From IMG/VR virus record IMGVR_UViG_3300029702_000002: a stretch of DNA of 64,000 bases; one strand, written 5' to 3'. Below, in pieces: positions 35,339 to 48,630 of the stretch (position 1 is its first letter; each line of letters opens with the position of its first letter). The notes beneath the pieces are model-generated. The model did no database searches. It was not told the origin of the DNA and saw only the letters and a program-made list of their open reading frames with translations. Both the position numbers and the translations under genes were made by a program. This DNA is from a virus. Its lineage: Duplodnaviria > Heunggongvirae > Uroviricota > Caudoviricetes.

Positions 35339-35482
35339 TTTTGATAGGTTCCAACTTACTTTAGTGTATTTGATTGTATCAAATAAAAAGAGCTTTACTG
35401 CTATGATTAGCGGTAGACAGTATGGGAGCTAAAGGGCAGAATCAGGGCATAAAGCGAACAGAACAAAGTGAGAATAAAATCA

Positions 35483-36448
35483 ATGAATAAAGCTAACAAT
35501 CAAGCAAAAGCAGAAAAGCCTGTGCCGACTAAAGAACTGTCCCCACCCCCAAAAGTTAAGACTGCGAGGTCAGCAGCAGAAAAAAATAAAACTGAAGGCA
35601 TGACATATCCGAAGACCAGCGCAGAAGGACACGCTGGTGAGTACTTATTTGCTTATTGGATTTCTCGTTATTTCAAATGGCCTTGTCGACTGCTGGATAT
35701 TGATATGGGGTTGGATGCACAGGTTGAAATCTATGAAAATGAACTTTCTACCGGTATGTTTATTGGCGTTCAGGTAAAAACCACCTCACGCACAATGAGT
35801 AGTAGTCTAGGAGTACAGATCCCCTATAAAAATTTAAAGTATTGGGGGGAATGCGATTTCCCTATAGTGATCGTTTTAATTTGTCTAAACGAAGATAATA
35901 AGCATGAAGAGCCAGATATTTACTGGCGGCATTTAGACAAACAAACCATCGCATCGTTATCAAGTACAGCGGATTACAATAACTCAGGAAGTACATCAGT
36001 AACATTTAACGAAGACCAATATCTGAAATCTCCAAGGGATAGAGAGAAATGGCTTAGATTATGGCTATCTAGTGAAGATCTGAAGATCATTGAACGATGC
36101 GAAGGTATTGAGAGAAACATTACTGCATTAGGGAAATTCTTTGAAGAAACAATTGTGGACGGGGATTTAAAACAGGGACTACCAACTCTTGATTTTTTTC
36201 GTAATTTAAACGATTTGTTGGACTCATATGATGAGGTGGAATTGGCTATTAGAGGTAACAATCGACTAGAGTATCTATCAGAGGAAGTTAAATCACTTAA
36301 AAAATGTCATGAGCGCTATATGCCTAAAATTATGTATGCCTTTGAACAGGCGTGCGAATCAAATAGTGTCATGATGAGTGATTTCGATCCGTATTCCCCT
36401 ATAAATAATAAACTCCATACTATACTAGTTAATAATAGAATTTATTAA
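35483..36448 (+). CDS. PD-(D/E)xK nuclease-like protein of unknown function (start may be GTG at 35468)
   Basis: GEYLF...D.GLDAQVEI...IGVQVKT resembles a D..E.K nuclease core; lower-GC plus-strand insert with own terminator. Confidence 0.55.
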   Translation: MNKANNQAKAEKPVPTKELSPPPKVKTARSAAEKNKTEGMTYPKTSAEGHAGEYLFAYWISRYFKWPCRLLDIDMGLDAQVEIYENELSTGMFIGVQVKTTSRTMSSSLGVQIPYKNLKYWGECDFPIVIVLICLNEDNKHEEPDIYWRHLDKQTIASLSSTADYNNSGSTSVTFNEDQYLKSPRDREKWLRLWLSSEDLKIIERCEGIERNITALGKFFEETIVDGDLKQGLPTLDFFRNLNDLLDSYDEVELAIRGNNRLEYLSEEVKSLKKCHERYMPKIMYAFEQACESNSVMMSDFDPYSPINNKLHTILVNNRIY

Positions 36449-36454
36449 CTAAAA

Positions 36455-36482
36455 GGCCCGTTATATAACGGGCCTGTTTATT
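36455..36482 (+). terminator. rho-independent terminator
   Basis: GGCCCGTT-ATAT-AACGGGCC hairpin followed by TGTTTATT. Confidence 0.7.
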
Positions 36483-36623: not shown

Positions 36624-39600
36624 TCATTTGCTAATAGTCTCCGCTACCTCTGCAAGAATTGCTTCCAGCTTTTCGCCTTCCTCTGGGCGAAAGTACAAAA
36701 TATTCGGGTTAAATCCGTAGAAAACGGTCACATCCAGCTCCGGCAGATACTCTTTGCGTCCAACCAGGTCGGATGGTTTGCTCTTGTTGTTGAAGAGCGA
36801 CGTCGCCCGGCTGCCACACGTCAGCACATAGGTCGGATGCACCAGATTGATCTCTTCACGTATAAAGTCGGTGAACTGGCCGATCTCGTCTTTGGTGTAG
36901 TCTTTTTCTTTGTCTTTAACCTTCTTGCAAACGCCTGTGACATAGAGATCGCCCATGCGTAAATCTCCAGCCGTCAATAGCTTGGCCTTAAAATCGTCGT
37001 ATCCGTTCTCCATGAAGTAACCGGTTCGAGCATCATTGCCGTTCGCATTGTCCAGAATGATCATGATTTTCGGCTTAATGCCAATGCTGGGGCGGATTAG
37101 TTCATCACCTAAGCCCATTTCAGCCGCCATCCGTGTCATGAGTGCGTTAATTTCAGCCGATCGTTTGGGGTTCATCTCAAACGGACGTGAGGCTTTAACT
37201 GCGTCTATGACAAGGTTTCCCATCAATTCTGCCTGGTCGCGGAGACGCTCTGGATCAGTTGCTGGCAGACTACCTGGCTCGATGGATGCAAACGCACCTA
37301 CTTTTTGCAGTGATTCGCGCACTCGACTATTACAGGCACGTTTCTCGACAGCTTCTTCGAATTGCGCCAGTGACTCGAATTTGCCGCCAACTTTTTCTCG
37401 CGCTCTCATGATGGCTTGGCAGCCATTCTCAGAACACCCCTTCACAGCAGAGAAGGGCGCATACAGAACCTGGCTGCCATCTTCAAGCGTGCGGATCTCG
37501 ATTCGGTTAGATGACACGTTAACGTCTGGTGGCAATACGCGAATACCATAGGTCAGCGCATCTTTAACCAGCCCTTGGTGTTTATCTTCGCCAAGAATAG
37601 TGAGAGCAGCAGCGAAAAACTCTGCGGGATAATGAGTTTTCAACCACATAGATTGATAACTGATTAAAGAATAAGCAACGGAGTGTGATTTATTGAACTG
37701 ATAGGCTCCGTTTTTCTCAAATGCGGTCCAGATCTCCTTCGCTTTCATCTCTGATAGCCCTGGATGTGACGCTGTAACGCGTACTGCGTTTATAGGTAGT
37801 TTTGCGCCGTGCTCAAGTGCCTCTTCGACAGTTTTCAGAGTTCCGTCTTCGCATTTAAAATGTTCCGCACGGTGAATGCGCTGTGTAGTGCCATCTTCCA
37901 GCTCAACGTCTATCCAGCCAGCTTGAGCCTGAACGATGAACTTCTCGCCCATGCTCTTCATTTTTTCCATGTTCTTCTTACCGATTGCGGAACGCACAGC
38001 GTCAGCTTCAGCCATTGTGAAGCCGGCAAGCAATCGAGTCGCGTTCATCGTCTGTTCCTGATAGAGAATCACGCCATTTGTTTCCGCGGTAAGTTCATCA
38101 AGAACGGGGTGTAATGATTCCGGCGTCATAAAGCCTTTGGCGACAGAAACATAGTCATCCAACATGCCTGATTGAATTGGCCCCGGCCGGAAGAGCGCAG
38201 TTGTAGCGACGACCGTTTTAAAGCTCATTGGCTCAATTCCACCACCTAAATCTTTAAGCAGCTTGCGCATTGGGCCTGATTCAAGCTGGAAAACACCTTG
38301 AGTGTACCCAGCAGCAAAACCATCCAGCACCTTGCGATCTTCAAGAGAAATGGCATCAAGATTGATATCTTCACCTGTGTTCTCTTTTATGTAGCGTTTT
38401 GCACTATCGAGCAAATCGAGAGTTGCCAGGCCAAGCACGTCCAGCTTAATTAGGCCCATAGCCTCGCAGTAACGCTTGTCAAATGCGATACAACGCGCGT
38501 CACCACGGCGCTCAACCGGTGTACGTTCTGTCAGAGGAACACCTGCTACGATCATCCCTGCCGCATGTCTACCAAAGCCACGCATAAGGCTTTGTAACTT
38601 GCAGGCTGCATTGAATGCATCAGGATATTTTGTTGCGTATTTGTCGAGACTTGCCAGTTGTTCGCGCAGCTCTTCCAATGGAAGGCTATCATCCTCGACG
38701 TTCTTCAGTTCTTTTGATACCGCCATATCTGCGGACTCCACACCATAAATACGAGCGGTATCACGTAGTGCAGAGGCTGCGCCCAGGTAGGTGAAGTTCG
38801 GAATACCCGCAACGTAATCTTCGCCGTAGCGTTCATTCAGATACTCGATCACCTCATGGCGACGTGCCTGGCTGAAGTCCAAGTCCGCATCCGGCAAGTC
38901 GAGACGCTCAGGGTTGATGAAACGCTCAAACAGAAGACCGTGACGGATTGGGTCGACGTTGGTTATGCCTATGCACCACGCCACCAGAGAACCGGCAGAG
39001 GAACCACGACCAGGCCCAACGGGAATGCCAGTTTCACGACTATGATTCATCAGATCGCGTACCATCAGGAAGTAACCACAAAATCCCAGGCGAGTCAGCG
39101 TGTCCATTTCGTACTTTAGCCGCTCAACATAAACCCTGTTCTCAGAAGCAGGTGGTGTGTAGCCAAACTCTTTTGTGGTAAGACGTTTACGCAGCCCTGC
39201 AACAGCCAGTTTCATAAGCGTTGCAGGCTCGTCGTCTGCCATCTTTGGCAGTGCTGGCGGCAATTCATGCCAGCGCCATGTGCAGGCATCGATAATGGTA
39301 TCCTGCGTTGTTGAGGCCATTGCAGCTGTTACCGGCACATCCATGCGAACGGAGAAGGCTTTAAGCGCCTCAAGGAGATGGCGGCGACCATTGACGGCGT
39401 TATCTCGCTGGTGGGGGATACGCAGACGATGCGGCTGGTCGATTTTGATGTTGTTCGTAACCATGTGCGCAATGTCTTTAATGTCTGCATCGTCGATCGA
39501 TTCGTAATAAGCGGGATAGAACGCCACTGGCTCTATTTTCAATGCGCTGGCGACTTTCATCGCCCGGACGTTAATCTGGTCGTAGAATGGGGTAGGGTGC

Positions 39601-40142
39601 GGATAAACCACACTATAGAAGTTGTCTTTTCCACCCGCTGTAATCAGTGTGCTTATGATTTTTGCAAAATCGTTGCGTTGGAACACGCTACCGATGTCGG
39701 AAGTAAGCAGGATGATGTTGCCTTTGGCATATGTAGAAACCAACTGTTCGAGCGAGAGACGCGGTACAAAGTAGAACTGTTCTCGTGTGTTGGCCGCCGT
39801 CATTAGTTCGCAGATGTCGCGATATCCTTGCTCATTTTTAATTAGAGCGGTAAACGAGTAGTTACGTCCCCGCTCTAATGATTCCATACATCTCATAGAT
39901 TCTTTAGCAAGTTTAGCCCGGTGCTCGTATGTGGGATCATCAACAATGTTTAGTTTCACACCACAAATAACCGCCATGTCGTCACCAGCGGCACGTTGTA
40001 GTGGAATAACGCTCGCAATATTCATGCTATCTGCTGAAATTACAGCGGTGTAGCCAGCTTCTCTGGCAATCTTCACCGCGTTTTCTGCTTTTAGAGCCGA
40101 CTCCCCAAGTGAGAAGTCAGTTCGAACCATCAGTGCCTTCAT
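36624..40142 (-). CDS. dnaE: DNA polymerase III alpha-like replicative polymerase
   Basis: 1172 aa; degenerate N-terminal PHP region, C-family polymerase core motifs. Confidence 0.85.
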   Translation of the reverse strand: MKALMVRTDFSLGESALKAENAVKIAREAGYTAVISADSMNIASVIPLQRAAGDDMAVICGVKLNIVDDPTYEHRAKLAKESMRCMESLERGRNYSFTALIKNEQGYRDICELMTAANTREQFYFVPRLSLEQLVSTYAKGNIILLTSDIGSVFQRNDFAKIISTLITAGGKDNFYSVVYPHPTPFYDQINVRAMKVASALKIEPVAFYPAYYESIDDADIKDIAHMVTNNIKIDQPHRLRIPHQRDNAVNGRRHLLEALKAFSVRMDVPVTAAMASTTQDTIIDACTWRWHELPPALPKMADDEPATLMKLAVAGLRKRLTTKEFGYTPPASENRVYVERLKYEMDTLTRLGFCGYFLMVRDLMNHSRETGIPVGPGRGSSAGSLVAWCIGITNVDPIRHGLLFERFINPERLDLPDADLDFSQARRHEVIEYLNERYGEDYVAGIPNFTYLGAASALRDTARIYGVESADMAVSKELKNVEDDSLPLEELREQLASLDKYATKYPDAFNAACKLQSLMRGFGRHAAGMIVAGVPLTERTPVERRGDARCIAFDKRYCEAMGLIKLDVLGLATLDLLDSAKRYIKENTGEDINLDAISLEDRKVLDGFAAGYTQGVFQLESGPMRKLLKDLGGGIEPMSFKTVVATTALFRPGPIQSGMLDDYVSVAKGFMTPESLHPVLDELTAETNGVILYQEQTMNATRLLAGFTMAEADAVRSAIGKKNMEKMKSMGEKFIVQAQAGWIDVELEDGTTQRIHRAEHFKCEDGTLKTVEEALEHGAKLPINAVRVTASHPGLSEMKAKEIWTAFEKNGAYQFNKSHSVAYSLISYQSMWLKTHYPAEFFAAALTILGEDKHQGLVKDALTYGIRVLPPDVNVSSNRIEIRTLEDGSQVLYAPFSAVKGCSENGCQAIMRAREKVGGKFESLAQFEEAVEKRACNSRVRESLQKVGAFASIEPGSLPATDPERLRDQAELMGNLVIDAVKASRPFEMNPKRSAEINALMTRMAAEMGLGDELIRPSIGIKPKIMIILDNANGNDARTGYFMENGYDDFKAKLLTAGDLRMGDLYVTGVCKKVKDKEKDYTKDEIGQFTDFIREEINLVHPTYVLTCGSRATSLFNNKSKPSDLVGRKEYLPELDVTVFYGFNPNILYFRPEEGEKLEAILAEVAETISK

Positions 40143-40320
40143 GTGTTTTTACCTTTCTGGTTTTTTTGATTTTGTCATTGGGGAAGCCTACGAACTTCCC
40201 ATGCATCGAAATCGCAACTTCTTTTGCTGATTGGTGACAATCGGGCTTGTCTGGACACACCAGACAAGCCTTACCAGTTTCAGAAGCAGCGATAAGAGAG
40301 CCGAAACATCCTTTACGCAC
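40117..40320 (-). CDS. small Cys-containing protein (67 aa)
   Basis: ORF track; CLVCPDKPDCH cluster. Confidence 0.35.
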   Translation of the reverse strand: MRKGCFGSLIAASETGKACLVCPDKPDCHQSAKEVAISMHGKFVGFPNDKIKKTRKVKTHEGTDGSN

Positions 40321-40322
40321 GA

Positions 40323-41558
40323 TTAACCAAATATTTTTTGAACAACTTCACGAGCCGCTTGTGCAGAAGCTGAAGGGAGTTTGTTAATGAAAGAACGCTC
40401 AATACCTGTCACAAAGTCGCCTCGCATCATTCCAATCTTGGCCGACAACAAAAGTTCACGAGGGCCAATTGGCTGACTGATAAGGTGTTCTTCGTATCCA
40501 TCGCGAACGATACCGGCAAACTTAACCATCTTTTCTGCGTATTCATCCACGATACCGGCATTTATCAACATGTTGATCTCTGCCTCTTTGCTCATGTATT
40601 TCACATTCGAAACGATGCCAAAACGCGAAAAGTTCGCGGCGTTCTGGATGTTTGTACCCTGGTACAAGCCGGTTTCATCACCAGATCCGTTCGTGTTGCC
40701 AGTGCCAATGAAAGCAAACCGTTCATGCGGAGTAATGCGACGCCATTCTGGAGTCGCCTCTTTGATGACCAACGCTTCACCTTCCAGCACTGGCTGATAC
40801 ACGCCAAGAATCTGTGGAAACGCAAAGTCGTATTCATCCGCGAGGTAAACCCAGCCATGCTTCATTGCGAGCGCAAGCAAGCCAGGCTCGAAATACGTAG
40901 AGCCATCACGCGCCAGAATTTGTCCCGTAACATGAGCCTCTTCCATTGATGCTGTATGTTGGGCACGGATTAACGGACGATTGAGCAAAGCACATAGTTG
41001 TGTAGGCAATGAAGATTTGCCTGTTCCTGCATGACCCCACAAATAGCCAGGTATGCCAAGTTCAAGCATCATGAAAATGTCTTTGATCAGTTCGAAGTCG
41101 CCATATACGTATCCCTTCTTCACTTCTGGAACGAACTCTGGAAACGGCGTATTGACGTTGACGCTAACCATGAGCGGCGTCCCACGTTTTGTTCCGAGTT
41201 CTTTCACCGTTACATTTAGCAGTTCGTGAGCTGCGACCAGATCTGTCTTGTACTCAACTGTGCCTGTGTAGCCTGGGCTACTGGTCACGCCAGATGATTT
41301 GGCCATTTCGCTTTTTTGCTCGGCACGTTTAGCTTGAATTGCATCAAGTGCCTTTTTCGATAGCGTTGGCTCATCTGGAAACTGTGTTGTGTACATTTTC
41401 AGTACGGTGTCAGGATCGGCATCTTTTACTGACTCAGGAATGCCCTCGCAATTACCATTGGCTACATGGGACTTAAAATAGTGAAATGATTTTCCGCACC
41501 ACTTGCAAACAAGGTAATCAGAAGGATTTTTTTCATTTTGCAGTGCAGTAGTAGTCAT
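40323..41558 (-). CDS. MoxR/CobS-like AAA+ ATPase
   Basis: Walker A GHAGTGKS, Walker B YLADEYD; N-terminal Cys cluster CKWCG...C. Confidence 0.75.
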   Translation of the reverse strand: MTTTALQNEKNPSDYLVCKWCGKSFHYFKSHVANGNCEGIPESVKDADPDTVLKMYTTQFPDEPTLSKKALDAIQAKRAEQKSEMAKSSGVTSSPGYTGTVEYKTDLVAAHELLNVTVKELGTKRGTPLMVSVNVNTPFPEFVPEVKKGYVYGDFELIKDIFMMLELGIPGYLWGHAGTGKSSLPTQLCALLNRPLIRAQHTASMEEAHVTGQILARDGSTYFEPGLLALAMKHGWVYLADEYDFAFPQILGVYQPVLEGEALVIKEATPEWRRITPHERFAFIGTGNTNGSGDETGLYQGTNIQNAANFSRFGIVSNVKYMSKEAEINMLINAGIVDEYAEKMVKFAGIVRDGYEEHLISQPIGPRELLLSAKIGMMRGDFVTGIERSFINKLPSASAQAAREVVQKIFG

Positions 41559-41653
41559 GCGTTTTTCCTTTGTTTTCTAATGAGCGTTCAACTTCTTATA
41601 TAAATATATCATTATCTATCGTAAGTGGTTACTTATCGTTAAGGCTGTTTTGT

Positions 41654-43762
41654 TCACTTTAAAATGATACGAGATAGTTCAGTAACTACAGATGAACCAA
41701 GACTATCAACGCTCGTTACCAGGGCATGATTTGAGTAAAATCTCTCCGGTGCGTCAGTCATGATGCCAATTGCCATCAAATCAATATCAGTCTGCGTTTC
41801 AATTTGCTTCGCAACTGAACGCAAATGAGCGTCAAAACCTCTCCCAACAGCCCACGGCGCGCCATCACTCAGAACAAGCATGATCTTCCTGTCCTCCATG
41901 CGACCGGAAAATAACGATGCAAGGCTGGCTATGCTTTCACCATCCACGTTATTAAGAAGTGGGAATGTGTAGCCTACGCACCCCATACGTGAGCGAACTT
42001 CGCGAGAATTTACCTTTTCATTCCAATTTTTGATGATAGGTAGCATTAAAGATTCAAAGCGAGAGAACTCATACTTGACAGCCTTAAGTTCTCCTGCCGC
42101 CATATGACTACCAAATGTAGTGAAGCCGGTGATAATGTTGGGAACATTTATTCGATCAAGTGCATCGGCGATGGTATATGCACTTGCAAGAGCTAGTTTT
42201 ATCGTTTCGCCACTCATTGAACCCGATAAATCAATCACTTGTTGAACACAGGCGTTAACGGCTTTAGATTCTTCTTTTTTACGAAACACGCGATCATCAT
42301 TCATTGTTAATCTGTAGATACTTGAACCATGAATGCGCCCCCGACGCTGGCCAGGTATAAACTGAACTCTGTTTCTGCTTGCTATTGCACGTTCCAGGTC
42401 TTTTGCCAGCGTCGACGAAACACCTGACGAAAGGTGCTTTTCAATATATTTGTCGAAGAGTTGGTTGCCTTCAGGAACGATGCGATAACGGCTGATTGGA
42501 TATCCACCTAAATCAATATCGGAGAATGTTTTAATAAGCCGTTTGATATGGGCTTCTGCCTGATCAATCGAGCCGATGAAGTCGTATGAGCGATTGTATG
42601 GCCTGTATTCGCTTTTCGAGCTTTCTGTTAACTCGCTTTTAATCGTTTCGGATAGCGCATCTTCTGTCATGCCTCCGACTTCATCTTCCATGCTATCCAA
42701 CTCCTCTAAAGCCTCTTCCAGACTCATTTTTGACGGAGTTGGAATGTCTGAAGAGCCGTCTTCTGTCGATTTTCTTTTTTCGTGGTCAGTGGTAAATGAT
42801 TCTGACGCCGCGTTATCAGAAGCACCAGAATCTGATACCTCTTTATCATTTTCTGTATCATCGAATATTGTTTCTGATGATTCAGAATTATCTGAATCAT
42901 CACTGTCGTTATTATCATGTTTGTGCTTACTGTGTGATTCTGATATGATAGATTTGTGATTATCTAACGCTGAGGGTGTCTCATGATCTTCGTTGTCTTC
43001 ATTGTTTTCTCCAGAGGCATCCGTCTGGTCAGCGTCTGAAGGATCGGAAGTTTTTCCCGGAGCTGACTCCTTACCTTTGCTTTCACTTTCAGTGTCTTTG
43101 AGGATCTTAGCTATGGTCGCAGCCACCTTTACACAATCCTCGGTGCAAGACATGTTACGCACGGCCACATCGATACCATGTTCTTTTAATAATGAAATTG
43201 GTTTCTCAATGACATGCCAATATTCATCCATGAAATCTACGAACGGTGCTTGGCCATCCCAGGCTCTTACAACCGGACAGAGAAAGAAGTTTAGAAAAAG
43301 CGCGCGCTGATCTTTGCCACAATAAGCAATAGCCTCTGAAGCCTTTGGTTTAAAGACTTTTTCGATTATAAGGCGCTGAGTTGCCATCAGATTACGTCTT
43401 GTTCCGTTAAAGACCTGACCCATTTTTCGCTCGATGAACACGTCTTCTAAGGCATTCCATAGCGACCAGGAAGGAACGCGTCCTTTTTCTCTCATTTTGT
43501 TGGACACACGAATATCGGTAAACAAAATGTGAGCAACCTCATGATCGAGAAATCCGCGCACAGCATTCATCAATGCCGGTGTTGCGTTATCCGGGATTGA
43601 TGGGATGTTTACGAGAATTGGCTCTCCATCATCGTTATAGCGTACATAAGCGTCGTCCCCTCGTTCTGCAACAGGGATGTTTTTACCTGAAAGGAGAGCG
43701 ACTACTCGTTTTACACTGTCACGGAAGTCCTGAACCTCTTTGATGGAACGTTTTTTAGACAT
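41654..43762 (-). CDS. CobT-like protein with acidic disordered region and C-terminal VWA domain
   Basis: MIDAS-like DLSGSMSG motif; long Asp/Glu/Ser-rich central region. Confidence 0.75.
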   Translation of the reverse strand: MSKKRSIKEVQDFRDSVKRVVALLSGKNIPVAERGDDAYVRYNDDGEPILVNIPSIPDNATPALMNAVRGFLDHEVAHILFTDIRVSNKMREKGRVPSWSLWNALEDVFIERKMGQVFNGTRRNLMATQRLIIEKVFKPKASEAIAYCGKDQRALFLNFFLCPVVRAWDGQAPFVDFMDEYWHVIEKPISLLKEHGIDVAVRNMSCTEDCVKVAATIAKILKDTESESKGKESAPGKTSDPSDADQTDASGENNEDNEDHETPSALDNHKSIISESHSKHKHDNNDSDDSDNSESSETIFDDTENDKEVSDSGASDNAASESFTTDHEKRKSTEDGSSDIPTPSKMSLEEALEELDSMEDEVGGMTEDALSETIKSELTESSKSEYRPYNRSYDFIGSIDQAEAHIKRLIKTFSDIDLGGYPISRYRIVPEGNQLFDKYIEKHLSSGVSSTLAKDLERAIASRNRVQFIPGQRRGRIHGSSIYRLTMNDDRVFRKKEESKAVNACVQQVIDLSGSMSGETIKLALASAYTIADALDRINVPNIITGFTTFGSHMAAGELKAVKYEFSRFESLMLPIIKNWNEKVNSREVRSRMGCVGYTFPLLNNVDGESIASLASLFSGRMEDRKIMLVLSDGAPWAVGRGFDAHLRSVAKQIETQTDIDLMAIGIMTDAPERFYSNHALVTSVDSLGSSVVTELSRIILK

Positions 43763-43860: not shown

Positions 43861-44073
43861 TTAACAGATTCTGACGGCTAAAGACCCGGAGCCGGTATTG
43901 AGAAGCGTGAAGCGTTTGTTGTTAAGTTCGAATATAAAGCCAGTTGTGTCATTCACACCAACCTGAATCTGCTCATTCGGTAGATCGGTGAGGATGTCAG
44001 CTACACACTCATCAGCTAATTTCTGTACGTGTCCGATCTCAAGAGCGATTAGGCTGGAAATAGTGGTGTTCAT
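43861..44073 (-). CDS. hypothetical protein (70 aa)
   Basis: ORF track; divergent from HTH gene. Confidence 0.4.
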   Translation of the reverse strand: MNTTISSLIALEIGHVQKLADECVADILTDLPNEQIQVGVNDTTGFIFELNNKRFTLLNTGSGSLAVRIC

Positions 44074-44250: not shown

Positions 44251-44278
44251 TTTACAACCCTAACCTTTGATGTAATAT
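44251..44278 (+). promoter_or_regulatory. putative sigma70-type promoter for the HTH regulator gene
   Basis: TTTACA (44251-44256), 16-bp spacer, TAATAT (44273-44278); flanked by TTACAACC/GGTTGTAA inverted repeat. Confidence 0.4.
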
Positions 44279-44324: not shown

Positions 44325-44711
44325 ATGTCTGATAACAAGATTGAATTTATAGAAAGTCGCTACGCTGCTTTTATCGCAGGGTTGATTGAATCCTCACCTA
44401 TGAGCCAGGCCCAGATAGCCAAAACAATTGGGTATAAAAACGCCAACAACCTTTCTTTAATTAAAAGCGGCAAAATTCCTTTGCCTATCGATAAGGTTCG
44501 TCCGCTGGCGCTGGCACTGGGCATTGAGCCAAGTCGTCTTATGATGATGGTGCTGGAAGAACGCCAACCCGAACTCGCAGCATTTTTATACAAAGAAGGC
44601 ACTGCTCCTCTTAACGAGGACGAAAAACAGGTTCTTGCTGCATATAACGAGCGATTCGGTAAAGAGAAAGGCGCATCACAAAAGGTTGTTGAGGCCATAA
44701 AGTCTCTATGA
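44325..44711 (+). CDS. helix-turn-helix transcriptional regulator
   Basis: MSQAQIAKTIGYKNANNLSLIKSGK HTH-like segment; 128 aa. Confidence 0.6.
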   Translation: MSDNKIEFIESRYAAFIAGLIESSPMSQAQIAKTIGYKNANNLSLIKSGKIPLPIDKVRPLALALGIEPSRLMMMVLEERQPELAAFLYKEGTAPLNEDEKQVLAAYNERFGKEKGASQKVVEAIKSL

Positions 44712-45940: not shown

Positions 45941-46059
45941 GTGGGCATTTTTTATAAAATCTGTGATTCTTCTCAGGATAAATTATCTAAACTAAAAATT
46001 GTGTTTTGTGTTGGCATCTGCTTGAATAGACGCATGTTTATTCAGATATGGAATAATCA

Positions 46060-46596
46060 GTGAACAACCAAATTCATTGGGACTACCCATTCTCAGAAGA
46101 ATTCGGCAGTGGGATGGTACACAGACAATTCACTGTGGGAAGCACTATTTATGCCGTTGGGTTTGAACAAATATTGACGATGGATGATTTCACACGTAAG
46201 GGAGTTGATATCCTAAATGTACATCCAACATTCCGGTTTCCTCTGAGTGGTGTATGGGGAGTGATTTTTGACGAAATTGACCCTGTAGAAATGGATTTCA
46301 AAGGATTTCGGCATATCCAACATCAAGGCTTGGCAGGTGGTCAAGTGCTTTTGAATGTTGCAAGTATAATCTTTGACCATTATACTGTTTGTAACGCAGG
46401 AGCTTATGTCTTCTCCGCCGCAGTCGACCATCAGCATTTACGCAGAACTGACTTGGTAGACATTTACTGTAAGATACTGGGTCTAAATGGAAAACGTAAA
46501 AGTAGATTGTTCGCCAATGGTTTTCCTGGATGGGAGGCATACTGTGATGTACCAACAGGAGGAAGAGGCTATGTCGTCACGACTGAAAGTTATTAA
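46060..46596 (+). CDS. hypothetical protein (GTG start, no clear RBS)
   Basis: ORF track only. Confidence 0.3.
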   Translation: MNNQIHWDYPFSEEFGSGMVHRQFTVGSTIYAVGFEQILTMDDFTRKGVDILNVHPTFRFPLSGVWGVIFDEIDPVEMDFKGFRHIQHQGLAGGQVLLNVASIIFDHYTVCNAGAYVFSAAVDHQHLRRTDLVDIYCKILGLNGKRKSRLFANGFPGWEAYCDVPTGGRGYVVTTESY

Positions 46597-46798
46597 TTAT
46601 TACCCCACCTCTGCAGAACGTTTGAGCCTTGAAATGGGCGAAAGACTACAGAAAGCTGCTGGTCAGGATTTAAAGAACAAGTTGGGTTCAGGGGAAATTA
46701 AACTGATTAACGGTAAATATGTAGGTGAAAGCCTGAAAGTTAATAGCACCTCTATGCTAAAAGCGCGGTTGCGTAAAGCGTATATCCCCGCTAAATGA
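46571..46798 (+). CDS. hypothetical small protein (start at internal ATG with GGAGG RBS)
   Basis: ORF 46487..46798 trimmed to ATG at 46571 preceded by GGAGG. Confidence 0.4.
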   Translation: MSSRLKVINYYPTSAERLSLEMGERLQKAAGQDLKNKLGSGEIKLINGKYVGESLKVNSTSMLKARLRKAYIPAK

Positions 46799-46802
46799 AA
46801 AG

Positions 46803-46830
46803 GCCTATATGGGCCTTTTCATTTTTATAG
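46803..46830. terminator. putative bidirectional terminator between convergent genes
   Basis: GAAAAGGCC ... GGCCTTTTC hairpin flanked by A/T runs. Confidence 0.5.
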
Positions 46831-47070
46831 TGTACTCACCAGCGCCGCAAATTCCGTATACCCCCCAATATGCTCTCCATGTATGAATATCTGAGGTATG
46901 GTATCCACTGGTTTACCAACCAGGTTGCTCAACGTTTCTTTGTTGATCCCCGCAGATGTAATATCTATATACTCATAATCACCGTAGCCATGTCCCTTTA
47001 GTTGCTTCGCCAGCTCGACCGCACGTTTGCAGTATGAGCAGTTATCTCGTCCGTAGATAGTGATCGTCAT
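46825..47070 (-). CDS. glutaredoxin / NrdH-like redoxin
   Basis: IYGRDNCSYCKRA CxxC motif; 81 aa. Confidence 0.8.
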   Translation of the reverse strand: MTITIYGRDNCSYCKRAVELAKQLKGHGYGDYEYIDITSAGINKETLSNLVGKPVDTIPQIFIHGEHIGGYTEFAALVSTL

Positions 47071-47243
47071 AACTTAACAAATACCTTTATAAATATTGAT
47101 TCGAACATATCAGACTATACTACAAACAGATTTTTTTGATAAGTATGTAGTAACTTATTGATTGACTAGTAAACAATTGAAGTGATTACGACAATAGATT
47201 ACAGTAAGGATTGCCTTGAAATGTACATTTTATAGAGGTTTTA

Positions 47244-48152
47244 ATGATTGGTAAGTTGTCTGATTCTTTGATTGAAAATAAATACAACGAATTTAGAGAA
47301 GAAATATCTTTACTTTTTGACTATTTAAATCAGATAAATGATACAACAAAGAAAAATATAAAACGTCTTCTTAAAGAAGTGGAGTATGCACAAAATCCAG
47401 ATACTATTATTAATATTAATGAAACTATTAAGATTAAGTGTGGCACAACGTTAGCTCGCCATTTATGTTCAAACCCATATACAGGTTCAACATTAGAGAT
47501 AGGTAACAGCGCCATTGATTTAGAAGAAAAGATAAGATTGTGTAATACTTTGAAAAATAAACAATATCAGTGGGTTATTACTGAAGCCTATGAGTTACTG
47601 GAAGACTATATTGAGGCAATATATGTCTATACTGTATGTGTTCGAAATGATTTATGGTCCTCAAGTGATTTTGGTAAGGTTGAAGATGATGAAATTGGGA
47701 AAAGGGAAGTTTATTACAGATTATTAAAAGCAAAAAGTAACCCATCGAAAAAAATAACTAAAATTTTCAGAAATAAAATACCTGGCTTCAAAGAGATAGA
47801 AACAAACAACAAGATTGGCAAAAACTATCGCTTTAACATCAAGCTAATTGAACTACTAAGACATACAATAGTACACAATAGTGGACGATTCAATGATACA
47901 GAAAAATTTATAAATAAGGTTTTAGATGAATCTGAAATAAACGGTAAGAAAAGAGTTATTGGAGAAAGAGCTGTTAGAAGTTACATTACTAAAGTGCAAG
48001 AAGATGATATTGTGATGCTCTTAGAAAGACCATCTGAAATTTTAGGTTCTTTTGGTGGGTATTTTAACAGAGCAAAATTTTTACTAAGTGATATTTTAGA
48101 ATACTCACTAATCATTAAAGAAGAACTAAAATCATATCTAGGCAATCATTAA
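47244..48152 (+). CDS. HEPN-like (Abi-type) protein, candidate abortive-infection factor
   Basis: R-x4-H motif in LLRHTIVHNSG; AT-rich gene with AGAGG RBS and own terminator. Confidence 0.5.
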   Translation: MIGKLSDSLIENKYNEFREEISLLFDYLNQINDTTKKNIKRLLKEVEYAQNPDTIININETIKIKCGTTLARHLCSNPYTGSTLEIGNSAIDLEEKIRLCNTLKNKQYQWVITEAYELLEDYIEAIYVYTVCVRNDLWSSSDFGKVEDDEIGKREVYYRLLKAKSNPSKKITKIFRNKIPGFKEIETNNKIGKNYRFNIKLIELLRHTIVHNSGRFNDTEKFINKVLDESEINGKKRVIGERAVRSYITKVQEDDIVMLLERPSEILGSFGGYFNRAKFLLSDILEYSLIIKEELKSYLGNH

Positions 48153-48157
48153 CAAAA

Positions 48158-48185
48158 AAGGGGCCGAAGCCCCTTTGGATTTTGC
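48158..48185 (+). terminator. rho-independent terminator
   Basis: AAGGGGC-CGAA-GCCCCTT hairpin followed by TGGATTTT. Confidence 0.65.
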
Positions 48186-48330
48186 GCTTAAAAAAGTGTT
48201 GCTAGGATGTTAGCAAGCTATGGTTAAGAACGTCTGCCGTAATTGTCTATCACAGCGTTGAGCTGTCTGGTTTATGTTAGCGGAGTCTTAATCGAGTTGA
48301 TTAAAAGGCCAAACCGCTCAACGCTGTGTC

Positions 48331-48417
48331 TGGCGGAGAGTAATGGAATCGAACCATCATCGCTTGCGCAATGGGACGGTTTTCAAGACCGCTTGAGCAC
48401 CATGCTCCCTACTCTCC
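48331..48417 (-). tRNA. tRNA-Ser (anticodon UGA), class II with long variable arm
   Basis: Manual fold: acceptor GGAGAGT/ACTCTCC, anticodon loop CUUGAAA, long variable arm, T-loop TTCGATT, encoded CCA. Confidence 0.75.
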
Positions 48418-48630
48418 AATTGTTGTGGTGCCGGGTGCTTCCCGGTGTCCTTTGGCTGGTTATCCACCGTGGACGGAGCCAATAGTCATCACAAAGGATC
48501 AATATAACCATTTCCCCGCGTGCGCTTAGCCGCATTCACCACAACGAAAAGAGCACTGTATGACGTTTGCACGGACTTACGCTTCAAACAGGGCAGTCTC
48601 GGCGGTTCTCAATGCTCTTTCCTGTTGTGT

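What the first reader, a model, noticed from the sequence alone, without database searches (positions are those of the whole stretch)
40323..43762. MoxR/CobS-like AAA+ ATPase paired with a CobT-like VWA protein, downstream of dnaE
The ATPase (GHAGTGKS, YLADEYD) and the VWA protein (DLSGSMSG with a long acidic disordered region) form a two-gene module in the replication operon. Such AAA+/VWA pairs have no assigned role in phages; the placement suggests a chaperone-like role in replisome or nucleoprotein remodelling rather than cobalt chelation.
Basis: partly seen in the sequence, partly recalled or inferred. Interest (0 to 1): 0.55.

Follow-up and report, generated by a model that had tools for sequence, protein, structure and literature searches.

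The report
Phage CobS/CobT-like ATPase–protease pair
Two neighbouring phage genes that databases label as vitamin B12 (cobalt chelatase) genes more likely encode an ATP-driven motor and an adaptor with an intact zinc-protease site, transcribed with the phage's DNA polymerase gene; the family is already known and its target is still unknown.

Summary
The two ORFs are real. Both lie on the minus strand, so the pair is upstream of dnaE in the transcription direction, not downstream. The window is an SSU5-type phage-plasmid of E. coli.

The 411-aa protein is a CobS-like MoxR-class AAA+ ATPase with every catalytic motif. The 702-aa protein is CobT-like: an N-domain, an acidic disordered linker, a "shaft" and a VWA domain with a complete MIDAS site.

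They are homologues of cobaltochelatase CobS/CobT but not equivalogs, scoring 85 and 74 bits against cut-offs of 559 and 759. The main difference is in the CobT N-domain. The phage type keeps an invariant HExxH…N..ED…E zinc-peptidase signature, while 55 of 55 cellular CobTs have [SA][MIL]AL[RK] at that position.

Pair and polymerase sit in one apparently repressor-controlled unit that is near-silent in a lysogen. In unrelated phages with three different polymerase systems (DnaE, PolA, T4-type) the pair also sits among replisome genes.

Most likely this is an ATP-driven, MIDAS-guided protein remodeller/protease of the early lytic programme, not a B12 enzyme. The client is unknown. The family was already described, so this is a new member of a known kind, of moderate interest.

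The parts
44325..44711 (+). HTH regulator, the putative lysogeny repressor, transcribed divergently from the operon that holds the pair.
   Evidence: Pfam HTH_19 and PHROG 8 transcriptional regulator. In the Cyrano record the gene at the equivalent position (same gene order; orthology by synteny, not aligned) is CYRAN_45, 'putative repressor', shown as the master repressor in PMC9928086.
44074..44324 (.). Divergent intergenic control region between the repressor gene and orf70. It is the presumed site of the early lytic promoter and operators.
   Evidence: Sequence read. The consensus scan found only one weak plus-strand sigma-70-like site at 44251-44278. No promoter has been mapped; this is an inference from gene layout.
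43861..44073 (-). orf70, the first small gene of the operon. Function unknown.
   Evidence: ORF. PHROG 2627 at 9e-41, function unknown. A 70-aa hypothetical gene (CYRAN_46) holds the same position in Cyrano.
41654..43762 (-). CobT-like adaptor, 702 aa: zincin-like N-domain, acidic linker, shaft, and VWA domain with MIDAS.
   Evidence: Pfam CobT and CobT_C. PHROG 1576 at 4e-301. Brucella CobT 4e-17. AlphaFold2 model with pLDDT 84.9 and pTM 0.78. Foldseek places the VWA domain closest to NorD and MDN1/Rea1 MIDAS domains.
43073..43762 (-). N-domain, aa 1-230. HExxH (H74, E75, H78) at 43529-43543; NALEDVFIER (N103, E106, D107, E111) at 43427-43456.
42728..43072 (-). Acidic, Ser-rich disordered linker, aa 231-345.
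   Evidence: 29% D+E. pLDDT below 50 for residues 243-324. Only 12-38% identical among SSU5-type relatives, against 65-88% for the folded parts.
42254..42382 (-). Shaft segment, aa ~461-503. It is equivalent to Brucella CobT Q373-R413, which inserts into the pore of the CobS ring.
   Evidence: Aligned to Brucella CobT. G475 is invariant; G471, L482 and F493 are nearly invariant. The shaft's role is taken from bioRxiv 10.64898/2026.07.21.739949.
41654..42253 (-). VWA domain, aa 504-702, with a complete MIDAS site: D511, S513, S515, N605, D633.
   Evidence: All five MIDAS residues align with Brucella D422/S424/S426/N518/D546. All five are invariant in 113 homologues.
40323..41558 (-). CobS-like MoxR-class AAA+ ATPase, 411 aa. 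Motifs: Walker A 41013-41036, Walker B 40827-40847, sensor-1 N288, arginine finger R312, sensor-2 R367.
   Evidence: Pfam AAA_5. PHROG 249 at 2e-106. PDB sequence matches to Brucella CobS 1.8e-25, midasin, CbbQ and NorQ. G175, G178, G180, K181, D241, E242, R312 and R367 are invariant across six phage lineages.
41466..41507 (-). C2H2-like zinc-finger motif CxxCGxxxHxxxxH at the N-terminus of the ATPase (aa 18-31). It is specific to this lineage.
   Evidence: Located. Present in 20 of 27 loci of the DnaE class; found in none of the PolA- or T4-class CobS proteins and in only one other locus, L132. No Pfam match.
40117..40320 (-). orf67, a Cys-rich small protein. Its start lies 2 nt after the ATPase stop codon, and it overlaps the dnaE start by 26 nt.
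   Evidence: ORF. PHROG 6337 at 3e-45, function unknown.
36624..40142 (-). DnaE-type DNA polymerase III alpha subunit, 1172 aa. Last gene of the unit.
   Evidence: Pfam PHP, DNA_pol3_alpha, finger and HHH_6 domains. PHROG 405.
36454..36475 (.). Bidirectional terminator-like hairpin (9 bp stem, 6 GC pairs, T-runs on both strands). It lies 149 nt after the dnaE stop and closes the unit.
   Evidence: Consensus scan. This is a prediction only.

Best explanation
The pair is the phage-type version of the CobS/CobT motor-adaptor machine. It most likely acts as an ATP-driven protein remodeller and protease, not as a cobalt chelatase.

Proposed mechanism:
1. The CobS-like protein forms an AAA+ hexamer. 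(Inferred from homology; all catalytic motifs are shown to be present.)
2. The hexamer grips the conserved shaft of the CobT-like adaptor. (Inferred from the Brucella CobST structure; shaft conservation is shown.)
3. The adaptor's VWA/MIDAS face binds an acidic residue of a client protein. (Inferred; the complete MIDAS site is shown.)
4. In the true chelatase the client, CobN, is held between the N- and C-domains of CobT. In the phage type the N-domain, tethered by a flexible linker, keeps an intact HExxH...E zinc-peptidase site. It is therefore placed to cut the held client. (The motif is shown; the activity is inferred.)
5. The genes lie in one transcription unit with dnaE, divergent from the putative lysogeny repressor, and are near-silent in a lysogen of the near-identical phage-plasmid Cyrano. 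The machine therefore probably works at the start of lytic growth.
6. Because the pair sits among replisome genes in several unrelated phage lineages, the most likely client is a phage or host protein at the replication/recombination apparatus. (Inference from neighbourhood only.)
For: Architecture and motifs:
- All AAA+ motifs, the shaft and the five MIDAS residues align with Brucella CobS/CobT and are conserved.

Not an equivalog of the chelatase:
- TIGR01650 CobS scores 84.8 bits against a cut-off of 558.6. TIGR01651 CobT scores 73.8 against 759.1.

Peptidase signature:
- G70, D73, H74, E75, H78, N103, E106, D107 and E111 are invariant in 113 homologues of about 30% identity.
- HExxH is present in 143 of the best 150 cluster representatives of a family of more than 5000 clusters.
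- At the aligned position, 55 of 55 alphaproteobacterial CobTs have [SA][MIL]AL[RK].
- The Brucella CobT N-domain has an M48C-like fold (bioRxiv 10.64898/2026.07.21.739949).
- Iyer et al. independently called the N-domain of such phage vWA proteins a metallopeptidase (PMC7824862).

Operon and timing:
- The genes are tightly packed, with a bidirectional terminator after dnaE.
- The unit is divergent from the putative repressor.
- In an LF82 lysogen, expression was 7.8 (CobT-like), 6.7 (CobS-like) and 10.1 (DnaE), against 95.8 for the repressor.

Neighbourhood in other lineages:
- 27 IMG/VR loci show CobT-CobS-...-DnaE-UvsY-gp32-Exo-UvsX.
- 9 loci carry PolA; in 8 of them the pair lies just upstream of (primase-)helicase-PolA, and in L131 between primase and PolA.
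- 12 T4-like loci have gp46 and/or gp45/44/62 beside CobT. The full order gp46-CobT-CobS-gp45 is seen in the longer ones (for example L142, L151, L154, L162).
- All are on the same strand.

No B12 rationale in the window:
- The phage ribonucleotide reductase is class I NrdA-like, which does not need B12.
- No B12 gene is present in the window.
Against: - No experiment on any phage CobS/CobT-like pair turned up in six literature searches. ATPase activity, protease activity and the client are all unshown.
- The profile-profile link between the phage and cellular N-domains is modest (E 7.8e-5, probability 62%).
- The HExxH motif is lost in the Pseudomonas phage nickie lineage (SEISK, also L111). 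Catalysis is therefore not indispensable everywhere.
- In Gordonia Woes, Roseobacter phage CRP-810 and 12 IMG/VR loci with the CobS-then-CobT order no replication neighbour was recognised.
- Early and middle regions of phage genomes are rich in replication genes anyway, and no formal null model was computed.
- T4 itself replicates without such a pair.
Confidence: 0.45

Rival explanations
1. Auxiliary metabolic gene. The pair is a true cobaltochelatase CobS/CobT that joins a host CobN to raise vitamin B12 synthesis during infection. This is the usual reading in the literature.
For: - Real homology to CobS/CobT, the best solved relatives, with shaft and MIDAS conserved.
- The hypothesis is stated in PMC8651126, PMC3037004 and PMC11288001.
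Against: - Scores lie far below the equivalog cut-offs.
- The N-domain keeps a peptidase site that all 55 cellular CobTs examined have lost.
- By established knowledge (not tested here), E. coli has no CobN and no de novo corrin pathway, Salmonella uses the CbiK route, and Vibrio cholerae makes no B12. Yet all three carry phages or plasmids with the pair.
- There are no B12 genes in the window, and the phage ribonucleotide reductase is class I.
- The pair always lies among replication genes, never among metabolic ones.
Confidence: 0.04
2. Virion assembly chaperone and protease. The MoxR-vWA-peptidase pair helps fold, assemble or process structural proteins, as proposed for jumbo phages and as reported for the MoxR-vWA system of the Acidianus two-tailed virus.
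For: - Proposed for the same architecture in PMC7824862.
- MoxR-VWA systems are assembly chaperones in several known cases.
Against: - Wherever neighbours could be identified, the pair lies in the replication/early module on the same strand as replisome genes, not in the structural module.
- Here it shares a unit with dnaE beside the putative repressor.
- Gene position does not prove timing.
Confidence: 0.12
3. Host-takeover or counter-defence protease. The machine captures and cuts a host protein unrelated to replication, such as a defence factor or regulator. It sits near replication genes only because both are early genes.
For: - Early position next to the repressor-controlled region.
- The folded domains evolve faster than DnaE among SSU5-type elements. 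The CobT-like protein is 65-88% identical and the CobS-like protein about 78% identical, against 87-94% for DnaE. This would fit adaptation to host targets.
Against: - No match to known defence or anti-defence families (PADLOC).
- The family spans hosts from E. coli to cyanobacteria, actinobacteria and haloarchaea. That argues for a very conserved client or a phage-encoded one.
- The embedding between replisome genes recurs in lineages with quite different genome layouts.
Confidence: 0.25
4. Plasmid-state maintenance function. The pair serves replication or stability of the prophage-plasmid during lysogeny.
For: The pair and dnaE co-occur in about 1000 plasmid records of the same taxa.
Against: - Transcripts are near-silent in a lysogen, more than tenfold below the repressor and toxin-antitoxin genes.
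- The family is core in strictly lytic cyanomyoviruses and in ICP2.
Confidence: 0.03

Closest known systems
Aerobic cobaltochelatase motor CobS/CobT (Brucella melitensis CobSTN; PDB 9ujv, 9uka; bioRxiv 10.64898/2026.07.21.739949)
   Same: - Closest solved relatives by sequence.
- Same domain order in the adaptor: M48-like N-domain, acidic disordered linker, shaft, VWA with MIDAS.
- Same AAA+ motifs in the motor.
- The two genes are adjacent.
   Different: - Only 85 and 74 bits against equivalog cut-offs of 559 and 759.
- The phage N-domain keeps HExxH where cellular CobT has [SA][MIL]AL[RK].
- The ATPase carries an extra N-terminal region of about 140 aa with a C2H2-like finger.
- No CobN or corrin pathway in the host (established knowledge).
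- The genomic context is DNA replication, not B12 synthesis.
Phage 'cobST' / MoxR-vWA-metallopeptidase pairs (PHROG 249 and PHROG 1576; SSU5 'porphyrin biosynthesis proteins'; cyanophage cobS plus 'peptidase'; ICP2 ORF41/42; PMC8651126, PMC7824862)
   Same: The same family, with E-values of 2e-106 and 4e-301. Architecture, motifs and gene adjacency are identical. The window's genes are 97-100% identical to those of Escherichia phage Cyrano, PhiR41_1 and E. coli plasmid CP091393.1.
   Different: Nothing essential. This copy belongs to the DnaE-linked siphovirus/phage-plasmid branch, which has the zinc-finger extension on the ATPase.
NorQ/NorD, CbbQ/CbbO, RavA/ViaA and Rea1/midasin (MoxR-class AAA+ motors with a VWA-MIDAS adaptor)
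   Same: - Same working principle: a hexameric MoxR-type motor plus one VWA adaptor that binds a client through MIDAS.
- NorD and MDN1/Rea1 MIDAS domains are the best structural matches of the VWA domain.
   Different: - Those adaptors carry no peptidase domain.
- Their clients are known: nitric oxide reductase, Rubisco, respiratory complexes and pre-60S assembly factors.
M48 / minigluzincin zinc metallopeptidases (Ste24, ZMPSTE24, HtpX-like, projannalysin)
   Different: No significant sequence or Foldseek match. The domain is soluble and fused to a VWA domain. Activity is untested.

Membership tests
Cobaltochelatase CobS/CobT (EC 6.6.1.2; NCBIfam equivalogs TIGR01650 and TIGR01651) | Scores above the curated equivalog cut-offs. 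| tested here: not met
   CobS-like: 84.8 bits against 558.55. CobT-like: 73.8 bits against 759.05, and only the C-terminal half matches.
Cobaltochelatase CobS/CobT (EC 6.6.1.2; NCBIfam equivalogs TIGR01650 and TIGR01651) | A competent AAA+ motor, a CobT shaft and a VWA MIDAS site. | tested here: met
   Walker A and B, N288, R312, R367, the shaft with G475, and MIDAS D511/S513/S515/N605/D633 all align with the Brucella residues.
Cobaltochelatase CobS/CobT (EC 6.6.1.2; NCBIfam equivalogs TIGR01650 and TIGR01651) | The CobT N-domain has the cellular form, with a degenerate M48-like site ([SA][MIL]AL[RK]). | tested here: not met
   The window has HEVAH. 55 of 55 cellular CobTs lack HExxH. 143 of 150 phage-type representatives have it.
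Cobaltochelatase CobS/CobT (EC 6.6.1.2; NCBIfam equivalogs TIGR01650 and TIGR01651) | A CobN catalytic subunit and the substrate hydrogenobyrinate a,c-diamide are available in the cell. | not testable with these tools
   Among the window ORFs checked, the only two of about 700 aa or more (DnaE and NrdA) are not CobN-like, and none matched a B12 family. That E. coli lacks cobN and the de novo corrin pathway is textbook knowledge (Lawrence & Roth 1995; Rodionov et al. 2003), not checked here.
Cobaltochelatase CobS/CobT (EC 6.6.1.2; NCBIfam equivalogs TIGR01650 and TIGR01651) | Genomic association with cobalamin biosynthesis genes. | tested here: not met
   The neighbours are dnaE, uvsY, gp32, an exonuclease, uvsX, sbcCD, nrdA and a ligase. 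The same holds in 48 of 77 viral loci.
MoxR-class AAA+ ATPase with a VWA co-factor | A MoxR/dynein-related AAA+ domain (AAA_5 type). | tested here: met
   Pfam AAA_5 at 2.1e-15. PDB sequence matches to CobS, midasin, CbbQ and NorQ.
MoxR-class AAA+ ATPase with a VWA co-factor | An adjacent gene for a VWA protein with an intact MIDAS site. | tested here: met
   The adjacent gene is 95 nt away on the same strand. MIDAS is invariant. Foldseek matches to NorD and MDN1/Rea1 MIDAS domains at 6e-9 to 1e-7.
Phage CobS-like / CobT-like pair (PHROG 249 and PHROG 1576) | Full-length profile matches and the paired gene arrangement. | tested here: met
   2e-106 over profile positions 4-375 of 380, and 4e-301 over 2-729 of 729. 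A CobS-like gene was detected beside CobT in 60 of 77 viral loci.
Zincin (M48-like gluzincin) metallopeptidase | An HExxH motif plus a downstream acidic zinc ligand, conserved. | tested here: met
   H74, E75, H78, E106, D107 and E111 are invariant in 113 homologues.
Zincin (M48-like gluzincin) metallopeptidase | A zincin fold. | tested here: inconclusive
Zincin (M48-like gluzincin) metallopeptidase | Zinc binding and peptide-bond hydrolysis. | not testable with these tools
   This needs biochemistry.

The most novel reading that the evidence does not exclude
The phage-type CobS/CobT pair is a widespread, so far unrecognised accessory of phage DNA replication. It would be an ATP-driven, MIDAS-guided zinc protease that removes or processes a protein at the replication/recombination apparatus. 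Possible clients are a host DNA-bound protein or a hub protein with an acidic tail. It would serve phages that use three different polymerase systems. Cellular cobaltochelatase CobT would then be a derivative that lost the protease site.
Probability: 0.25. Interest if true: 0.75.

Novelty: new member of a known kind. Interest (0 to 1): 0.5.

Why it matters
These genes are routinely counted as vitamin B12 "auxiliary metabolic genes" in phage, plasmid and virome surveys. They are core genes in marine cyanomyoviruses. They are also carried by about 1000 sequenced plasmids of Klebsiella, Escherichia, Acinetobacter, Enterobacter, Yersinia, Salmonella and other genera.

If they are instead a protease/remodelling machine of the lytic programme, those ecological readings are wrong. 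A common phage function would also still lack its substrate.

The contrast between an intact HExxH in phages and a dead site in true CobT gives a simple rule for separating the two in annotation. It also gives clear point mutants for finding the client.

Tried and rejected
1. PDB sequence search with the N-domain alone, and with a six-sequence profile, gave only noise (MHC, SOD). The link to the CobT N-domain rests on the Pfam CobT model (5e-27) and on hhalign.
3. PADLOC gave nothing for the ATPase and only a weak DrmE match for the VWA protein (6.7e-4), which I treat as noise. I therefore rejected the idea that the pair is a defence system.
4. Six literature searches for an experimental function of phage CobS/CobT found only predictions.
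5. The tblastn hit in Xanthomonas phage JGB6 falls under fragmented 'DNA polymerase III' annotations in a record with broken ORFs. I set it aside as uninformative.
6. The first homologue search returned only SSU5-type proteins in its top 120. Diversity came from the representative search instead.
7. Two attempts to find a citable statement that E. coli lacks de novo B12 synthesis did not yield an explicit sentence. That point stands as textbook knowledge only.
8. I considered a clamp-loader-like role for the ATPase. I rejected it because the protein is MoxR-class rather than RFC-class, and because T4-like carriers already have gp44/62.


Full report
**What the window is.** The 7.1-kb stretch holding dnaE and the pair is 95-97% identical to Escherichia phages PhiR41_1, CMS-2020a and Cyrano, and 81% identical to Salmonella phage SSU5. 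The CobT-like and DnaE proteins are 100% identical to those of E. coli plasmid CP091393.1. The window therefore comes from an SSU5-type phage-plasmid.

**The observation.** Both ORFs exist at exactly the stated coordinates, on the minus strand: 41654-43762 (702 aa) and 40323-41558 (411 aa).
- GHAGTGKS at aa 175-182
- YLADEYD at aa 238-244
- DLSGSMSG at aa 511-518
- a 115-residue acidic, Ser-rich linker, predicted disordered

Family matches are overwhelming:
- Pfam AAA_5, CobT and CobT_C
- PHROG 249 at 2e-106 and PHROG 1576 at 4e-301
- Brucella CobS and CobT as the best solved relatives

One point needs correcting. Transcription runs orf70 -> CobT-like -> CobS-like -> orf67 -> dnaE. The pair is therefore upstream of dnaE.

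**Anatomy of the ATPase.** All residues that build the nucleotide pocket of Brucella CobS have counterparts: Walker A, Walker B D241/E242, sensor-1 N288, arginine finger R312 and sensor-2 R367. The Walker residues, R312 and R367 are invariant across six phage lineages. The first ~140 residues have no counterpart in cellular CobS. They begin with a CxxCGxxxHxxxxH motif found in 20 of 27 relatives of the DnaE-linked branch, in none of the PolA- or T4-linked branches, and in only one other locus, L132.

**Anatomy of the adaptor.** The AlphaFold2 model is confident outside the linker (pLDDT 84.9, pTM 0.78). The C-terminal part aligns with Brucella CobT from the shaft (Q373-R413 there, about aa 461-503 here) through the VWA domain. 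All five MIDAS residues (D511, S513, S515, N605, D633) are invariant in 113 homologues of about 30% identity. Structurally the VWA domain is closest to NorD and to the MIDAS domains of MDN1/Rea1.

**The N-domain is the key difference.**
- The recent CobSTN structure paper reports that the CobT N-domain has an M48C peptidase-like fold and that CobN is held between the N- and C-domains of CobT (bioRxiv 10.64898/2026.07.21.739949).
- The window's protein has HEVAH at aa 74-78 followed by NALEDVFIER.
- A full HMMER search of 1.84 billion cluster representatives found 5122 relatives. 143 of the best 150 carry GF[LIV]DHE[VI][AG]H; three of the seven without it are short fragments.
- In a 113-sequence alignment, G70, D73, H74, E75, H78, N103, E106, D107 and E111 are invariant.
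- I then fetched cellular CobT genes from 80 alphaproteobacterial genomes. None of the 55 full-length proteins has HExxH. The aligned position reads [SA][MIL]AL[RK], and the downstream motif reads AVEQARVE.
- The profile-profile alignment that equates the two motifs is only modest (E 7.8e-5, probability 62%). MAFFT gives the same register, and both groups match Pfam CobT.
- The motif is lost in the Pseudomonas phage nickie lineage, which has SEISK.

In short, the phage type keeps what looks like a live peptidase site under strong constraint, and the true chelatase adaptor has a dead one.

**Membership.** Against NCBI's equivalog models the proteins score 84.8 bits (cut-off 558.6) and 73.8 bits (cut-off 759.1). 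They are homologues of CobS/CobT but not the same function class. They are full members of the phage family PHROG 249/1576. That family has been described twice from sequence:
- as a 'cobST' cluster proposed to hijack host CobN (PMC8651126). That paper also notes that the cyanophage CobT is usually annotated as a peptidase.
- as a MoxR-vWA chaperone pair with an N-terminal metallopeptidase, proposed to act in virion assembly (PMC7824862).

Other papers simply list the genes as B12 auxiliary metabolic genes and say the function is uncertain.

**Context in the window.**
- The ATPase stop codon is 2 nt from the orf67 start, and orf67 overlaps dnaE by 26 nt.
- A strong bidirectional terminator-like hairpin lies at 36454-36475, 149 nt after the dnaE stop.
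- Upstream, the unit faces an HTH gene. In Cyrano the gene at the same position (same gene order; not aligned here) is the putative master repressor.
- In the LF82 lysogen transcriptome the CobT-like, CobS-like and DnaE genes read 7.8, 6.7 and 10.1. The repressor reads 95.8 and the HicAB pair 141-294. The unit is therefore near-silent in lysogeny.
- Further along the same strand lie UvsY-like, gp32-like, exonuclease, UvsX-like, SbcCD and a class I NrdA reductase.
- Among the ORFs checked, none resembles CobN and none matched a B12 family.

**Context elsewhere.** Annotated phages:
- Rhizobium phage RHEph10 and Pseudomonas phage nickie have DnaB-primase-ligase-CobT-CobS-(1-3 genes)-DnaE.
- Vibrio phage ICP2 has CobT-CobS-three small genes-primase-helicase-PolA.
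- Prochlorococcus phage P-SSM4 has gp47-gp46-'peptidase' (the CobT-like protein, with HEVGH and a DWSGS MIDAS motif)-pcyA-cobS-gp45-gp44-gp62.
- Gordonia phage Woes and Roseobacter phage CRP-810 show no replication neighbour.

For numbers I fetched 77 IMG/VR loci and labelled neighbours by phmmer with reference proteins:
- 27 loci have the DnaE arrangement.
- 9 carry PolA near the pair.
- 12 have T4-type neighbours (gp46 and/or gp45/44/62).
- 12 have the CobS-then-CobT order with a long ATPase and no recognised replication gene.
- The rest are short or uninformative.
- All arrangements are on one strand.

Caveats:
- Two of the four fishing patterns were the peptidase motifs. These loci therefore cannot be used to estimate HExxH frequency.
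- My reference set would miss divergent replication genes.
- I computed no null model.
- Within the SSU5 group the near one-to-one co-occurrence with dnaE (999 against 984 plasmid records, same genera) reflects common descent, not independent evidence.

**How it most likely works.**

Shown:
- A complete MoxR-type motor.
- An adaptor with shaft, MIDAS and an intact HExxH...E signature.
- Co-location in one tightly packed gene string with dnaE that is near-silent in lysogeny.
- Recurrent placement among replisome genes in phages that use DnaE, PolA or T4-type replication.

Inferred:
- The hexamer holds the shaft.
- MIDAS binds an acidic residue of a client.
- The N-domain, which in the chelatase touches the held client CobN, here cuts it.
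- The client belongs to the replication/recombination apparatus or to DNA-bound host proteins.

I put about 0.9 on 'not a cobalt chelatase in this host', about 0.7 on 'the N-domain is an active metallopeptidase', and about 0.45 on the full statement including a replication-linked client.

**Rivals.**
- *B12 reading.* It fails on the equivalog scores, the live peptidase site, the context, the class I reductase and, by textbook knowledge, the absence of CobN and of corrin synthesis in E. coli.
- *Virion-assembly reading.* It is not excluded, but it is at odds with gene position wherever neighbours could be identified.
- *Host-takeover or counter-defence protease.* This is the strongest rival. 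The folded parts of the adaptor (65-88% identical among SSU5-type elements) and the ATPase (78%) evolve faster than DnaE (87-94%). Early genes cluster near replication genes anyway.
- *Plasmid-maintenance role.* It is unlikely given the silence in lysogeny and the presence of the family in strictly lytic phages.

**Verdict.** The object is a new member of a family already known from sequence, whose usual B12 label is very probably wrong and whose substrate is unknown. Interest is moderate (0.5). The phage-versus-cellular HExxH contrast and the three-polymerase synteny make a long-standing annotation puzzle directly testable, but nothing here is categorically new.

Noticed in passing
window 35468-36448 (+), with the terminator at 36454-36475: A plus-strand DUF4365 gene sits between dnaE and the uvsY-like gene, against the direction of the operon. 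PADLOC matches it to an Argonaute-associated REase-like family at 2e-10. Phage Cyrano carries a HicAB toxin-antitoxin pair at the same spot. This looks like a variable hotspot for defence or toxin-antitoxin cargo.
   Followed up: partly
window 36624-37400 (-), C-terminal ~120 aa of DnaE: The C-terminus of the DnaE polymerase resembles family-4 uracil-DNA glycosylase. TIGR00758 gives 2e-8 at 34 bits, which is below its cut-off of 125. The Rhizobium phage RHEph10 record notes the same fusion.
   Followed up: partly
relatives: plasmid hits H151-H153; loci L091, L092, L094, L108: In several Klebsiella and Enterobacter plasmids and IMG/VR relatives, dnaE is split into two pieces. In the plasmids a NUMOD4 HNH endonuclease gene lies between the pieces. 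This suggests a homing endonuclease, intron or intein insertion that the window's dnaE lacks.
   Followed up: no
locus L088 (Escherichia phage Cyrano, OV696614), CYRAN_47 and CYRAN_48: The public record names the CobT-like gene 'dimethylbenzimidazole phosphoribosyltransferase' and the CobS-like gene 'cobalamin synthetase'. These are the unrelated Salmonella-nomenclature CobT and CobS, so this is a name-collision annotation error.
   Followed up: yes
window 46001-48200; ORFs 46060-46596 (+) and 47244-48152 (+): A low-GC island (36% against about 45-47% elsewhere, with positive GC skew) carries two plus-strand ORFs. Neither has a Pfam or PADLOC match. In Cyrano this neighbourhood holds CYRAN_43, by far the most highly expressed gene in lysogeny. 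Probably recently acquired cargo.
   Followed up: partly
window 48331-48783 (-): A cluster of three tRNA genes, Ser(tga), Thr(tgt) and Asn(gtt), lies between the integrase region and the ligase/primase genes. It is also annotated in Cyrano.
   Followed up: no
window 40117-40320 (-): orf67 is a Cys-rich small protein (C5, C19, C22, C28; PHROG 6337). It is wedged between the ATPase and dnaE, with a 26-nt overlap into dnaE that suggests translational coupling. Other lineages have different small genes at this position.
   Followed up: no
window 53571-54761 (+): A 396-aa protein with six Sel1 repeats (Pfam 1e-52) is encoded on the strand opposite to its neighbours. This is unusual cargo for a phage replication region.
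   Followed up: no
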